A DNA stretch of 64,000 nt from Candidatus Syntropharchaeum butanivorans (GCA_001766825.1 LYOR01000002.1:61810-125809), one strand, 5' to 3'; shown: positions 9,886 through 12,102, counted from the stretch's first letter. Made by a program: numbers and translations. Notes: generated from the letters alone by a model not told the origin.

Positions 9886-10515
9886 ATGATAAATATGAAT
9901 GTTGGACAGGAATTGCTGAATGTTCCATTTGGCGAGATGATAAAGGAGATGGCGCTGGCTATCGCAGAGGGCCAGCAGGCACTGGATATGAACTCGATTG
10001 AGGTTGCACAGGCGCTTGCCGAGATCGAGCTACCGGCTGGTAGCGTTATTCTTGCGATCGAGCAACCTGTTGATGAGGATGGAAATCCCACCGGGTCGCC
10101 CACGCTTGTGACAAATGATCAACCGATGAACCTCTTGACGTATGGACTCCAGCCGCGATTTTATGAGTTCACAGAGTCGATCATCGAGGTTAAGATGACA
10201 ATATCGATGAAAATTGAGCGATCAATCGAGAAGGAGTACAAGAAGGAGTTCAAGTTCAAGAATAAAACCACGTTTGAGAGCAGTTTTAAATCGAGTGGCC
10301 TGGCAAGTTTCTTATTTGGAAAGGCTTCCGCCAAGCTCAAGTCAGAGACCACTGTTGCATATGCTTCAACCTATAATGCAAAGTACAAATCCAAGTACAC
10401 GTTCTCTGAGACAGGAACGAGCCTGCTCAGGACGACCTTGAGGCCAGTGCCTCCACCAGATCGGGCTGTGCCGACGATCAAGATACAGGAAGCTTCAGGT
10501 TCGTCCACTCCTTAA
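9886..10515 (+). CDS. Uncharacterised DUF2589-like protein with long Ser/Thr/Lys-rich beta-hairpin
   Basis: VPFGEMIKEMALAIAEGQQALD helix; paralogous to the next ORF; family call from memory only. Confidence 0.6.
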   Translation: MINMNVGQELLNVPFGEMIKEMALAIAEGQQALDMNSIEVAQALAEIELPAGSVILAIEQPVDEDGNPTGSPTLVTNDQPMNLLTYGLQPRFYEFTESIIEVKMTISMKIERSIEKEYKKEFKFKNKTTFESSFKSSGLASFLFGKASAKLKSETTVAYASTYNAKYKSKYTFSETGTSLLRTTLRPVPPPDRAVPTIKIQEASGSSTP

Positions 10516-10518
10516 TTC

Positions 10519-10526
10519 TTTTTTTT
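10519..10526 (+). terminator. T8 tract immediately after first cassette gene (possible internal terminator)
   Basis: TAA then TTC then T8 before the GAGGAG RBS of the next gene; archaeal terminators are oligo-T. Confidence 0.45.
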
Positions 10527-10548
10527 ACATCCCTGAGGAGTGGAGTTT

Positions 10549-10965
10549 ATGGTAGATAAGGACGAGAAGAAGGTGATCGTTGAGGCGCTTGTAGCTCCAC
10601 TTGCCAGCATCCTCAGGTCTGTTGGGATTGCGCTTGCAGAGGCACAGCATGCACTTGATGAGAACTCGATCGCAACACAGAAGGCGATCGATCTTGCAGT
10701 TAAGAGCGGTGAGCTTGAGTACTATATAGAGGCGCCATGGTACCACTTTCCAGAGGTGAATCTCGAACTCAAGATGGCACTCTCAATGAGGGCAGAGGCA
10801 GAGGTTGATAGAAAAGGGAGGGTGCGAGGATACAGGCCAATTCTAATCTCAGCACCGATAAATGCGGCTTACAAGAACACCTATGACTATGATGTCAGAG
10901 GTTCAAGCCAGATAACGGCAAAGATCGTCTCTATACCGCCTGCATCAAAGATTAAGGGAGAATGA
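10549..10965 (+). CDS. Uncharacterised DUF2589-like protein, short paralog
   Basis: PLASILRSVGIALAEAQHALDENS, PWYHFPEVNLELKMALSM, GSSQITAKIVSIPP. Confidence 0.6.
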   Translation: MVDKDEKKVIVEALVAPLASILRSVGIALAEAQHALDENSIATQKAIDLAVKSGELEYYIEAPWYHFPEVNLELKMALSMRAEAEVDRKGRVRGYRPILISAPINAAYKNTYDYDVRGSSQITAKIVSIPPASKIKGE

Positions 10966-10966
10966 T

Positions 10967-11848
10967 GTGGTTGAGATGGCAGAGGACTACAGAAAGAAAT
11001 ATGAGCAGCTTCTCAGGGATTTTACCGCAAAAGAAGCAGAGATTGGTGAGCTTAGATCCCAGGTAAAGAGGCTTCAACTTGAGCGTCCGAAGATCCCGCC
11101 AGATCGCCTCGTTTCAACCTTTGTAGATGCGCTTGAGAAGATGCAGGTTGCACTATCAGAGAAGCGCACGCGTGTTAAGTATCTTGTCAGTGATATGGAG
11201 GTTGAGCTGAAGGCAAATGTGGCATTCAACGAGGATAAGAATGAGATAGCCTATCAGCTTCCAAAGCTTGATGATACCCTGCCCCCTGAGAACCTGAGCA
11301 CGATCCGTTTCAGGATAAAGATGCTCCCAGGAGATGAGGAAGTATCCGGTGAAGAGGTCTTTGGTTATGACGAGGTCCCGAACCTCATAGGTCTCACACT
11401 CGATGCAGCGAAGCATCAGATAACATCGAGGAATTTCACGGTTGGTGAAATCAGCTACAGAAGAAATGACCAGGTTGAACCGGGCACTGTTCTCTCCCAG
11501 ATCCCATCTCCATTCTCGCTCGCACCCCCGGAAAGTCCTGTTGACATAACGGTTTCAGAGCCCGCTGTAAAGCTGACAGAGGTTCCGGATCTCATCGGAG
11601 TCCCACTCGATGATGCAGAAAAACTCTTAAAATCAGTTAATCTGGAAAAAGGCAGGGTGACAGAAGAAAGGAGTGAATCACCCCCCGGGACCGTGATAAG
11701 CCAGAGCATCGAGGCCGGTAAAGAGGTTGAGGCTGGATCTGCGATCGATCTTGTGGTCGCGGCAAAAAGAAGAAGGAATATCTCTCGATACAGGAGGCCC
11801 CAGATATATCCAAGGCGGATCAGCAGGGATCTGAAAGTTGTAAAATGA
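10967..11848 (+). CDS. Coiled coil + helix/beta-hairpin module + 2 PASTA domains
   Basis: VPNLIGLTLDAA..GTVLSQIP and VPDLIGVPLDDA..GTVISQSI PASTA repeats; N-terminal heptads; no TM or signal peptide. Confidence 0.85.
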   Translation: MVEMAEDYRKKYEQLLRDFTAKEAEIGELRSQVKRLQLERPKIPPDRLVSTFVDALEKMQVALSEKRTRVKYLVSDMEVELKANVAFNEDKNEIAYQLPKLDDTLPPENLSTIRFRIKMLPGDEEVSGEEVFGYDEVPNLIGLTLDAAKHQITSRNFTVGEISYRRNDQVEPGTVLSQIPSPFSLAPPESPVDITVSEPAVKLTEVPDLIGVPLDDAEKLLKSVNLEKGRVTEERSESPPGTVISQSIEAGKEVEAGSAIDLVVAAKRRRNISRYRRPQIYPRRISRDLKVVK

Positions 11849-12102
11849 GCCTTGAAACATGTATCGTCTGGCTGAATGAGCCTCTCACAACAAAAAAGGT
11901 TGAGGTATTCACACGAGCAGTGGTTGACCGCGGCGGCAGAATCGAACTTACAGCAACCAGAGGCGCATTCATCATAAGCATCGATCACACCTTCATCGAC
12001 GAGCTCAGAGCAATGCCGGGTGTGAAGCTCATCGGTGGCGTTGAGATACGCCCCCGGAAAGTCCCCATCATCAAGAAACCTCTCCGTGCGGGAGAATCCT
12101 GA
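11845..12102 (+). CDS. 85-aa ferredoxin-fold-like protein (peptidase inhibitor I9/propeptide-like)
   Basis: CIVWL..GGRI..GAFIISI..IDELRAMPGVKLI pattern; ATGA overlap with upstream gene. Confidence 0.5.
   Translation: MSLETCIVWLNEPLTTKKVEVFTRAVVDRGGRIELTATRGAFIISIDHTFIDELRAMPGVKLIGGVEIRPRKVPIIKKPLRAGES

What the first reader, a model, noticed from the sequence alone, without database searches (positions are those of the whole stretch)
11340..11770. Tandem PASTA domains in an archaeal protein without signal peptide, kinase or PBP domain
Seen: two clear PASTA repeats follow an acidic linker and precede a basic Arg-rich tail; no TM segment. Known: PASTA domains occur mainly on bacterial PBPs and Ser/Thr kinases, and some bind muropeptides; archaea of this type lack peptidoglycan. 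Inference: acquired from bacteria to sense or target bacterial cell wall (partner or competitor), or repurposed as a protein-interaction module.
Basis: partly seen in the sequence, partly recalled or inferred. Interest (0 to 1): 0.72.

Follow-up and report, generated by a model that had tools for sequence, protein, structure and literature searches.

The report
Cytoplasmic PASTA arm of conserved cassette
The two PASTA domains are real, but they are a standing part of an undescribed four-gene protein cassette shared by many archaea and bacteria, with no export signal, so they probably act as an arm or spacer inside the cell and not as a sensor of bacterial cell wall.

Summary
Observation confirmed. 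ORF 10967..11848 (+, 293 aa) carries two PASTA domains (Pfam 97.4 bits against a cut-off of 23.2; fold matches solved kinase PASTA domains), an acidic linker and a basic tail (12 K/R in 27 residues). It has no membrane segment, kinase or PBP domain.

The "borrowed cell-wall sensor" reading is not supported. The gene is the third of a strictly conserved cassette A-B-C-D (9886..12102). I found that cassette with different flanks in GoM-Arc1/Ethanoperedens, ANME-2, Methanosarcinaceae and Theionarchaea, and in bacteria. A and B are paralogues, distantly related to DUF2589. In a 1.84-billion-protein search, 76 of the 150 best B-like proteins carry PASTA in the same chain and 34 carry the HhH domain DUF4332. 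None of the 150 has a membrane helix. PASTA number runs from 1 to about 14.

Best reading: C is the arm-bearing subunit of a cytoplasmic assembly of helix-plus-beta-hairpin subunits, possibly like the Pepco beta-barrels. The PASTA array would be a spacer or binding arm, and the basic tail or HhH domain would bind a polyanion. The physiological role is unknown.

No paper I could search describes it. This scan noted the same cassette earlier on other genomes.

The parts
9886..10515 (+). Gene A (209 aa): most conserved subunit. N-terminal helix, then long beta-hairpins with a Ser/Thr/Lys-rich insert and a Pro-rich C-terminus.
   Evidence: ORF. 466 homologues; 55-60% identical between archaea and bacteria. 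Paralogue of B: hhalign 99.2%, E 3.6e-19. The AF2 model is weak (pLDDT 60) and has no PDB fold match.
10540..10965 (+). Gene B (141 aa): minimal version of the A/B domain.
   Evidence: The B profile finds 860 representatives at E<=1e-3. Combined A+B profile against DUF2589 pairs: hhalign 87.9%, E 3.2e-6; reversed control E 0.6.
10967..11848 (+). Gene C (293 aa): the PASTA protein. GTG start one base after the stop of B.
10970..11080 (+). C, aa 2-38: long helix, predicted coiled coil.
   Evidence: AF2 helix 2-38, pLDDT 85-92. Its length varies in homologues.
11099..11329 (+). C, aa 45-121: family-specific middle domain (helix plus four strands; motifs KYLVSDMEVELKANV, QLPKLDD, ENLSTIRFRIK).
   Evidence: Conserved in all 23 aligned members. 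AF2 pLDDT 61-72. Weak profile links to Trypco2 (E 4e-4, 70 columns) and to the third gene of DUF2589 cassettes (E 1e-4). Not significant against A/B.
11327..11374 (+). C, aa 121-136: acidic linker, disordered in the model.
   Evidence: 7 D/E and 0 K/R. pLDDT below 50 at residues 122-131.
11372..11560 (+). PASTA domain 1.
   Evidence: Pfam, 48.6 bits for this copy. pLDDT about 90. Foldseek matches to PknB/Stk1 PASTA.
11579..11761 (+). PASTA domain 2.
   Evidence: Pfam, 56.9 bits for this copy.
11765..11845 (+). C, aa 267-293: basic, disordered tail (KRRRNISRYRRPQIYPRRISRDLKVVK).
   Evidence: 12 K/R and 1 D/E. pLDDT below 50. In many homologues an HHH_5/DUF4332 domain occupies this position. Basic tails recur across the family.
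11845..12102 (+). Gene D (85 aa): ATGA overlap with C. Resembles a subtilase propeptide (I9) and ends in a basic tail.
   Evidence: Conserved in every cassette, upstream of A in the bacterial ones. The profile hits subtilisin E and BPN' prosegments at E 1.2e-3 and 6e-3, gapless over 59 residues. No Pfam I9 hit.

Best explanation
The PASTA protein (C) is one subunit of a conserved, cytoplasmic four-protein assembly (A, B, C, D). It is not a cell-wall sensor.

Shown:
- The cassette is kept intact, with different neighbours, across archaea and bacteria.
- A and B are paralogues.
- The A/B-type domain is fused directly to PASTA, and often to an HhH/DUF4332 domain, in about half of its closest relatives.
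- No member has an export signal or a membrane helix.
- The number of PASTA repeats ranges from 1 to about 14.
- The C-terminus is either a basic disordered tail or an HhH domain.

Inferred:
- A, B and the middle domain of C (helix plus amphipathic beta-hairpins, with Pro-rich ends) co-assemble into a hetero-oligomeric ring or beta-barrel, as shown experimentally for the distantly similar Pepco/Trypco proteins.
- The coiled coil of C helps oligomerisation.
- The PASTA array is a rod-like spacer, or a protein- or ligand-binding arm.
- That arm holds the basic tail or HhH domain at a set distance, where it binds a polyanion, most likely nucleic acid.
- D, a subtilase-propeptide-like protein with no subtilase in this genome, is a small regulatory or capping partner.

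The physiological role is open. I favour an accessory, possibly membrane-active stress or conflict module over a housekeeping scaffold.
For: - PASTA is real and of ordinary sequence and fold.
- Cassette A-B-C-D occurs with different flanks in GoM-Arc1 (L003, L007, L009), an ANME-2-like contig (L004), Methanolobus (L005), Theionarchaea (L014), Prosthecochloris (L013) and a bacterial-type MAG (L016).
- A and B are paralogues: 99.2%, E 3.6e-19. Each is monophyletic at 100/100 support, with parallel sub-groupings.
- The B profile finds 860 representatives. Of the best 150, 76 carry PASTA, 34 carry DUF4332 and 22 carry HHH_5 in the same chain.
- No membrane-helix-like segment in 150 B-type and 120 A-type proteins, and 1 marginal segment in 41 C-type proteins, against 18 of 25 kinase-type PASTA proteins.
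- PASTA counts per protein: 1 (L016), 2 (window), 3 to 5 and about 14 in a 1,324-aa paralogue with a basic tail.
- Remote links: A+B to DUF2589, 87.9%, E 3e-6. C-mid to Trypco2, E 4e-4 over the whole domain, and to the third gene of DUF2589 cassettes, E 1e-4, with reversed controls at 0.02 to 0.6.
- Pepco (Trypco1/2) forms constitutive detergent-resistant 9- to 10-mer beta-barrels with a basal amphipathic helix and a Pro- and charge-rich tail (bioRxiv 10.1101/2025.11.14.688446).
- The AF2 model of A is a helix plus long hairpins at low confidence, as expected for a subunit that folds only in an oligomer.
- D resembles subtilisin prosegments.
- Linear arrangement of PknB PASTA repeats comes from my own knowledge of the 2KUI NMR work.
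Against: - No assembly was modelled or observed; no multimer prediction was available.
- The C-mid link to A/B is not significant (E 0.04 to 0.3), and its links to Trypco2 and the DUF2589 third gene are below 60% probability.
- No Pfam, NCBIfam, PHROG or PADLOC model matches A, B or D.
- No PDB fold matches A.
- No protease is conserved next to the cassette, unlike Pepco modules, and three cassette-bearing genomes have no S8 subtilase.
- A is 56-61% identical between archaea and bacteria. That is unusually slow evolution for a conflict system.
- Nothing tests what PASTA or the tail binds.
Confidence: 0.5

Rival explanations
1. One reading: the PASTA domains were taken from bacteria and bind peptidoglycan or muropeptides of a syntrophic partner or a competitor. 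They would act either as a sensor or to aim something at bacterial cell wall.
For: The PASTA sequence is ordinary and closest in PDB to muropeptide-associated kinase ectodomains. GoM-Arc1 archaea live in consortia with sulfate-reducing bacteria (my own knowledge). The genome shows no murein machinery of its own.
Against: There is no signal peptide or membrane helix in C or in any cassette protein. The same cassette occurs in free-living Methanosarcinaceae and in bacteria that have their own murein. PASTA is fused to the cytoplasmic B-like and HhH domains across the superfamily. A same-genus genome, 95% complete, lacks the cassette. A PASTA-only comparison gives no signal of a recent bacterial source.
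Confidence: 0.05
2. The cassette is an anti-virus or abortive-infection module. A/B(/C) would form a latent pore, with the extra amphipathic hairpin of A as the membrane-inserting part. The PASTA array plus HhH or basic tail would be the sensor for invading nucleic acid or a virus protein, and D would be an inhibitor that is removed on triggering. This overlaps with the best explanation but commits to a defence role and to pore formation.
For: - Patchy distribution: about 26 of 401 genomes of the phylum, and absent from a same-genus genome.
- In Prosthecochloris it lies next to a type I R-M system and an M78/HTH gene. In Theionarchaea it lies next to PIN/VapB-type genes.
- An alpha/beta-hydrolase gene is translationally coupled to it in L016.
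- Remote similarity to Pepco pore-formers, and an I9-like partner.
Against: A is conserved very strongly across domains of life. There is no NTPase, nuclease or protease. There is no PADLOC match beyond the PASTA part. In several genomes it sits among housekeeping genes. It was not found in IMG/VR contigs or phage records. The model of A is too weak to call a pore.
Confidence: 0.25
3. The cassette builds a non-toxic structural scaffold in the cytoplasm, for example one associated with the nucleoid or with ribosomes. PASTA rods would act as spacers and the HhH or basic tail as the DNA or RNA anchor.
For: Conservation of A resembles that of a slowly evolving structural protein. HhH/DUF4332 domains, and in 3 of 150 representatives an L7/L12 C-terminal domain, occur in the same chains. 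There are no enzymes in the cassette. The PASTA number is variable, as in a ruler.
Against: The patchy distribution, including absence from a close relative, argues against a core cellular role. No solved scaffold has a similar fold.
Confidence: 0.15

Closest known systems
PASTA domains of Hanks-type kinases (PknB, PrkC/Stk1, StkP) and class B PBPs (PBP2x, PBP1)
   Same: Same domain family by sequence (Pfam 97.4 bits; PDB profile E 8e-30) and by predicted fold. Tandem repeats joined by short linkers, as in kinase ectodomains.
   Different: Those proteins place PASTA outside the membrane, after a membrane helix or a transpeptidase domain, and some bind muropeptides. Here there is no membrane helix, kinase or PBP domain. 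The partner domains are a coiled coil, a Pepco/DUF2589-like domain and a basic tail or HhH domain. The host has no murein.
DUF2589 (Pfam PF11655), an uncharacterised family
   Same: Profile-profile match of A+B to DUF2589 pairs: 87.9%, E 3e-6 over about 150 columns. Both occur as tandem paralogues followed by a third helix-plus-strand protein. Both have the N-terminal 'A.AQ' helix followed by strand motifs.
   Different: The Pfam model itself does not match A or B at E<=1. DUF2589 cassettes have no PASTA protein and no D gene in the loci I read. No function is known for either.
Pepco (Trypco1/Trypco2, PF19631), protease-activated pore-forming effectors of anti-phage systems (bioRxiv 10.1101/2025.11.14.688446)
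   Same: Small size. Amphipathic N-terminal helix, amphipathic beta-hairpins and a Pro- and charge-rich C-terminal end. Weak profile match of the C middle domain to Trypco2 over the whole domain (E 4e-4). A protease-related partner is present, since D resembles a subtilase propeptide.
   Different: The homology is not established (35-37% probability). There is no adjacent protease or STAND/Avs sensor. There are three different paralogous subunits in place of one. Sequence conservation is far higher. PASTA and HhH domains are attached.
Subtilase propeptides (MEROPS inhibitor family I9)
   Same: The D profile aligns without gaps over 59 residues to subtilisin E and BPN' prosegments (E 1.2e-3 and 6e-3).
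   Different: D stands alone with no protease domain. No S8 subtilase was found in three genomes that carry the cassette. The Pfam I9 model does not match.

Membership tests
PASTA domain (Pfam PF03793) | Sequence match to the family model above its gathering score | tested here: met
   97.4 bits against 23.2, two copies. Each copy scores 48.6 and 56.9 bits on the genome scan.
PASTA domain (Pfam PF03793) | Small alpha/beta fold (one helix packed on a three-stranded sheet), as in solved PASTA structures | tested here: met
   AF2 pLDDT about 90. Foldseek to 3m9g, 3py9 and 5e12 at E 1e-9 to 1e-7, and TMt 0.77 to 0.87 to 2kue and 3ouv.
PASTA kinases / PASTA PBPs (the classical context) | PASTA lies outside the membrane, after a membrane helix, and is linked to a Hanks kinase or a transpeptidase domain | tested here: not met
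   Maximum KD19 is 0.79. No kinase or PBP domain. The NCBIfam Stk1 equivalog scores 83 bits against a cut-off of 450 and matches only the PASTA part.
PASTA kinases / PASTA PBPs (the classical context) | Binding of muropeptides, lipid II or beta-lactams | not testable with these tools
   No ligand-binding motif is diagnostic. This needs a binding assay.
DUF2589 (PF11655) | Match to the Pfam model | tested here: not met
   No hit at E<=1 for A or B. Only 0.03 to 0.065 for two distant B-like proteins.
DUF2589 (PF11655) | Profile-profile similarity over the whole domain, and tandem-paralogue gene layout | tested here: inconclusive
   hhalign 87.9%, E 3.2e-6 for A+B against DUF2589 pairs, with the reversed control at E 0.6. 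A alone gives E 1e-3 and B alone E 4e-4. Tandem pairs plus a third gene are seen in loci L018 to L026.
Pepco / Trypco2 (PF19631) | Match to the family model or profile | tested here: inconclusive
   No Pfam hit. C-mid against one archaeal Trypco2 lineage gives 35-37%, E 4e-4 over 70 columns, with the reversed control at E 0.28. A/B against Trypco2 is not significant.
Pepco / Trypco2 (PF19631) | Encoded next to a serine or cysteine protease that cleaves its C-terminal tail | tested here: not met
   No protease gene in any of the nine cassettes read. A true Trypco2 in L030 does sit next to a subtilase-TPR gene.
Pepco / Trypco2 (PF19631) | Constitutive detergent-resistant 9- to 10-mer beta-barrel | not testable with these tools
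   No multimer prediction was available. The monomer model of A is low confidence, with long hairpins.
Inhibitor I9 (subtilase propeptide), for gene D | Sequence similarity to prosegments, and pairing with a subtilase | tested here: inconclusive
   PDB profile hits at E 1.2e-3 and 6e-3, gapless. No Pfam I9 hit. No S8 peptidase in G000, G139 or G001.

The most novel reading that the evidence does not exclude
A-B-C-D is a previously undescribed hetero-oligomeric beta-barrel machine, independent of a protease and distantly related to Pepco and DUF2589, and shared by archaea and bacteria. In it the PASTA array has a cytoplasmic, non-murein job: a length-setting arm or a receptor that couples binding of nucleic acid (through the basic tail or HhH domain) to opening or positioning of the barrel. 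That would make this a third functional context for PASTA, besides kinases and PBPs, and the first inside the cell.
Probability: 0.25. Interest if true: 0.8.

Novelty: new variant of a known kind. Interest (0 to 1): 0.6.

Why it matters
PASTA is generally treated as an extracellular domain that reads the cell wall. Here it is a regular building block of a cytoplasmic protein family found in organisms with and without murein. Annotations such as "beta-lactam-binding protein" or "Ser/Thr kinase" given to these proteins are therefore misleading.

The cassette around it is widespread: 466 A-type clusters and 860 B-type representatives. It is strongly conserved and has no recognised enzymatic domain in any of its four proteins. 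I found no paper on it in the library I could search. Its only experimentally studied distant look-alike forms membrane pores in anti-phage defence. Working out what it assembles into would give a function to several uncharacterised families (the A/B family, DUF2589 and part of DUF4332). It would also show what a PASTA domain binds when there is no peptidoglycan.

Tried and rejected
1. The search for related loci with the 23-member alignment failed because no stretch was conserved enough. A closer set gave 7 loci.
2. NCBIfam, PHROGs and PADLOC give nothing for A, B or D. The PADLOC PD-T4-6 hits to C cover only the PASTA part.
3. PDB sequence search with the A profile found nothing.
4. The AF2 model of A is weak (pLDDT 60). 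Foldseek found no match below E 0.7. The aerolysin, lysenin and phage-tail entries in that list are not significant, and I do not use them.
5. A search of IMG/VR with A patterns found no relative. Phage records gave no match.
6. Plasmid records gave one partial match. It is a PASTA-less variant cassette on a Sphaerotilus megaplasmid.
7. Comparing PASTA domains alone is uninformative. The window's repeats are 30-48% identical to kinase-type PASTA and 32-40% to bacterial cassette PASTA. I did not read the FastTree tree that the script also built.
8. Homologues of the one archaeal Trypco2 protein numbered only 7, all close, so that profile stayed shallow.
9. C-mid against A/B is not significant, so "three paralogous subunits" is not shown for C.
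10. The literature searches on PASTA in archaea, DUF2589 and DUF4332 turned up no description of this family. The only mention is that DUF2589-type genes AF0414-AF0417 of Archaeoglobus fulgidus go up on lactate.
12. I considered a frameshifted C-terminus, with the HhH domain encoded in the next ORF. I rejected it because the next ORF is the conserved D gene, and close relatives have the same basic tail.

Full report

Yes. The ORF at 10967..11848 on the + strand encodes 293 residues.

- Pfam PASTA (PF03793) matches with E 4.6e-28 and 97.4 bits, against a gathering cut-off of 23.2, in two stretches.
- On the genome scan the two copies lie at window positions of about 11372..11560 and 11579..11761. 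They are the only PASTA matches in this 1.46-Mb, 79%-complete genome.
- A profile of the family hits solved PASTA ectodomains of S. aureus Stk1/PrkC and M. tuberculosis PknB at E 8e-30 to 4e-18.
- An AlphaFold2 model has pLDDT of about 90 over both domains.
- Foldseek recovers the same structures at E 1e-9 to 1e-7.
Both are disordered in the model.
- The highest 19-residue hydropathy mean is 0.79, so there is no membrane helix or signal peptide. No kinase or PBP domain is present.

The host is an archaeon. An Nre gene lies upstream. The closest loci are a GoM-Arc1/"Ethanoperedens" genome (92% identity), a MAG labelled Syntrophoarchaeum (89%) and Argoarchaeum (73%). The genome has no PBP transpeptidase and no SEDS protein. 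Its single weak Mur-ligase-type match is of the kind also seen in the murein-free control archaea.

**2. How unusual is PASTA in an archaeon?**

It is less unusual than the finding implies. In 401 genomes sampled from the same phylum, 70 have a PASTA match above the Pfam cut-off, spread over 35 of 121 genera. The model also rings in the control genomes of Methanosarcina acetivorans and Methanocaldococcus jannaschii. Public records already name relatives "PASTA domain-containing protein". Some pipelines mislabel them as kinases or beta-lactam-binding proteins.

**3. What the gene belongs to**

Full-length relatives share an N-terminal coiled coil, a family-specific middle domain (KYLVSDMEVELKANV ... 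QLPKLDD ... ENLSTIRFRIK) and then PASTA repeats. The C-terminus is either a basic tail or an HHH_5/DUF4332 helix-hairpin-helix domain.

In every locus I read, the gene is the third of four tightly packed genes:
- A, about 205 aa;
- B, about 135 aa;
- C, the PASTA protein;
- D, about 82 aa.

The flanking genes differ from locus to locus. I read GoM-Arc1 (L003, L007, L009), an ANME-2-like contig (L004), Methanolobus (L005, beside the ribosomal protein operon), a MAG labelled Halobacteria (L012) and Theionarchaea (L014). I also read Prosthecochloris ethylica (L013) and a bacterial-type MAG (L016), where D sits upstream of A. In the window the cassette spans 9886..12102. There is a 1-nt gap between B and C and an ATGA overlap between C and D.

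Conservation falls from A to D. Against the window, A is 56-91% identical, B 36-94%, C 28-93% and D 28-93%. A is still 59% identical in Prosthecochloris.

**4. PASTA is a habitual partner of the cassette's own domain**

A and B are paralogues (hhalign 99.2%, E 3.6e-19). A profile of B, searched against 1.84 billion representative proteins, finds 860 at E<=1e-3. Of the best 150, 76 carry PASTA in the same polypeptide, 34 carry DUF4332 and 22 carry HHH_5. The typical architecture is [DUF4332]-B-like domain-PASTA(n).

The combination of helix/beta-hairpin domain, PASTA and HhH is therefore old and recurrent. It is not a local acquisition by this archaeon.

A crude hydropathy control separates the two worlds. 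Of 25 kinase-type PASTA proteins, 18 have a segment with KD19 >= 2.0. The count is 0 of 150 for B-type proteins and 0 of 120 for A-type proteins. It is 1 of 41 for C-type proteins, and that one case is marginal (2.01) and lies at the end of a PASTA repeat.

The PASTA number is highly variable: 1 in L016, 2 here and 3 to 5 in other C proteins. A 1,324-residue second C paralogue, encoded just upstream of the cassette in a 4.2-Mb Methanosarcina-like genome, has about 14. It again has no membrane helix and ends in a basic tail.

**5. What the non-PASTA parts look like**

No Pfam, NCBIfam, PHROG or PADLOC model matches A, B or D.

- **A.** The model is weak (pLDDT 60). It shows a long N-terminal helix followed by long beta-hairpins and matches no solved fold.
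- **A/B and DUF2589.** Profile comparison links the combined A+B alignment to DUF2589 at 87.9%, E 3.2e-6, over about 150 columns. The reversed-sequence control gives E 0.6. DUF2589 genes in this phylum also come as tandem paralogues followed by a third small gene.
- **The middle domain of C.** It matches that third gene at E 1e-4 (56%). It matches an archaeal Trypco2 protein over the whole domain at E 4e-4 (35-37%). Controls give 0.02 to 0.3. It does not significantly match A/B. I therefore treat a common helix-plus-hairpin origin of A, B, C-mid, DUF2589 and Trypco2 as likely for A/B and DUF2589, and only suggestive for the rest.
- **Why this matters for mechanism.** Pepco (Trypco1/2) was recently shown to form constitutive, detergent-resistant 9- to 10-mer beta-barrels. 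These have a basal amphipathic helix and a Pro- and charge-rich tail, and they become pores after the tail is cleaved (bioRxiv 10.1101/2025.11.14.688446). A, B and C-mid have the same order of elements and end in I/V-P-P(P) motifs, which can be read directly.
- **D.** Its profile aligns without gaps over 59 residues to the prosegments of subtilisin E and BPN' (E 1.2e-3 and 6e-3). Yet no S8 subtilase was found in this genome, in a same-genus genome, or in a complete genome with the cassette.

**6. Distribution and inheritance**

Within the phylum, about 26 of 401 genomes have a full-length A. One same-genus genome that is 95% complete has neither A nor PASTA.

In a tree of A rooted by B, both paralogues are monophyletic (100/100). 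Methanosarcinaceae form a clade (97/97). The window groups with sequences labelled ANME-2 and Hydrothermarchaeaceae. The backbone, including the bacterial sequences, is unresolved.

The picture is local vertical descent with losses, plus transfers between distant lineages whose direction cannot be read. PASTA domains alone carry no usable signal. The cassette was not found in IMG/VR contigs or phage records. The one plasmid match is a PASTA-less variant.

**7. Most likely mechanism**

*Shown:*
- a cytoplasmic protein with head (coiled coil plus middle domain), acidic linker, PASTA repeats and a basic tail or HhH domain;
- obligate genetic linkage to two paralogous hairpin proteins and to an I9-like protein;
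- PASTA fused to the same kind of domain in half of the superfamily;
- a variable repeat number.

*Inferred:*
- the head docks into a hetero-oligomeric ring or barrel made with A and B;
- the PASTA array is a rod or binding arm (PknB's four repeats are linear in solution, from my own knowledge of the 2KUI work);
- the tail or HhH domain binds a polyanion, most likely nucleic acid.

Whether the assembly is a latent pore used in conflict or stress, or a harmless scaffold, is open. The patchy distribution, the neighbours in two genomes (a type I R-M system; PIN/VapB-type genes), the coupled alpha/beta-hydrolase gene in L016 and the Pepco resemblance favour a conflict or stress role. The extreme conservation of A and the absence of any sensor NTPase or protease argue against it.

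**8.

The cell-wall-sensing or cell-wall-targeting idea is not supported. "Protein-interaction module" remains plausible. "Acquired from bacteria" cannot be decided.

**9. Novelty**

I found no paper on this family. Earlier notes of this scan describe the same cassette on other genomes and on this window. One of them gave me the name Pepco, which led me to the paper. I tested the DUF2589, Trypco2 and I9 claims myself, with the results given above.

I file it as a new variant of a known kind: a bona fide PASTA domain in a third, intracellular context, inside an uncharacterised and widespread cassette.

Noticed in passing
L032:5053-9024 (-) = G223:C1, just upstream of that genome's A gene: A second C-type paralogue of 1,324 aa in a 4.2-Mb Methanosarcina-like genome. 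It has a long repetitive coiled coil, the C middle domain, a poly-Ser linker, about 14 PASTA repeats and a basic tail, with no membrane helix. Related genomes (G213, G318, G328) also show extra PASTA ORFs next to the cassette.
   Followed up: partly
L016:4019-5422 (+): In a bacterial-type MAG a 467-aa alpha/beta-hydrolase-like gene (GxSxG motif HSTGG; faint DUF7379) overlaps the stop of the PASTA gene by 4 nt. Alpha/beta-hydrolases are one of the protease-linked effector classes in the Pepco paper.
   Followed up: no
L013:1-4944: In Prosthecochloris ethylica the cassette (order D-A-B-C; C is 506 aa, with four PASTA repeats detected and an HhH-like end) lies beside a type I restriction-modification system and an HTH/M78 peptidase gene.
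   Followed up: no
L018-L029 (genomes of the same phylum): DUF2589 genes occur in 15 of 301 genomes. In nine loci (L018-L026) they occur as a tandem pair plus a third gene of about 145 aa with an 'FE.SE.EVEL.F' motif, which echoes the A-B-C layout but lacks PASTA.
   Followed up: partly
L030:1243-3150 (-): A 167-aa protein made of two Trypco2 repeats lies directly downstream of a 447-aa subtilase-TPR gene: a classical Pepco-protease pair in an archaeal MAG.
   Followed up: no
L031:4643-7422 (Sphaerotilus sulfidivorans plasmid NZ_CP035710.1): Five consecutive hypothetical genes. The second is 45% identical to the N-terminal half of A. None has PASTA. This is a PASTA-less variant cassette on a 303-kb plasmid.
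   Followed up: partly
window 11845..12102: Gene D matches subtilisin prosegments (E 1.2e-3), although no S8 subtilase was found in this genome or in two other cassette-bearing genomes.
   Followed up: yes
(B-superfamily representatives, e.g. P0306): Three of 150 B-like proteins also carry a ribosomal L7/L12 C-terminal domain, and some carry alanine-zipper-like coiled coils. Their meaning is unknown.
   Followed up: no
L006 against L007: Near-identical cassettes (89-96% protein identity to the window) are deposited under two different labels: 'Candidatus Syntrophoarchaeum sp.' and 'Methanoperedenaceae archaeon GB37 (GoM-Arc1)'. This may be a labelling or binning issue in one record, or a recent transfer.
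   Followed up: no
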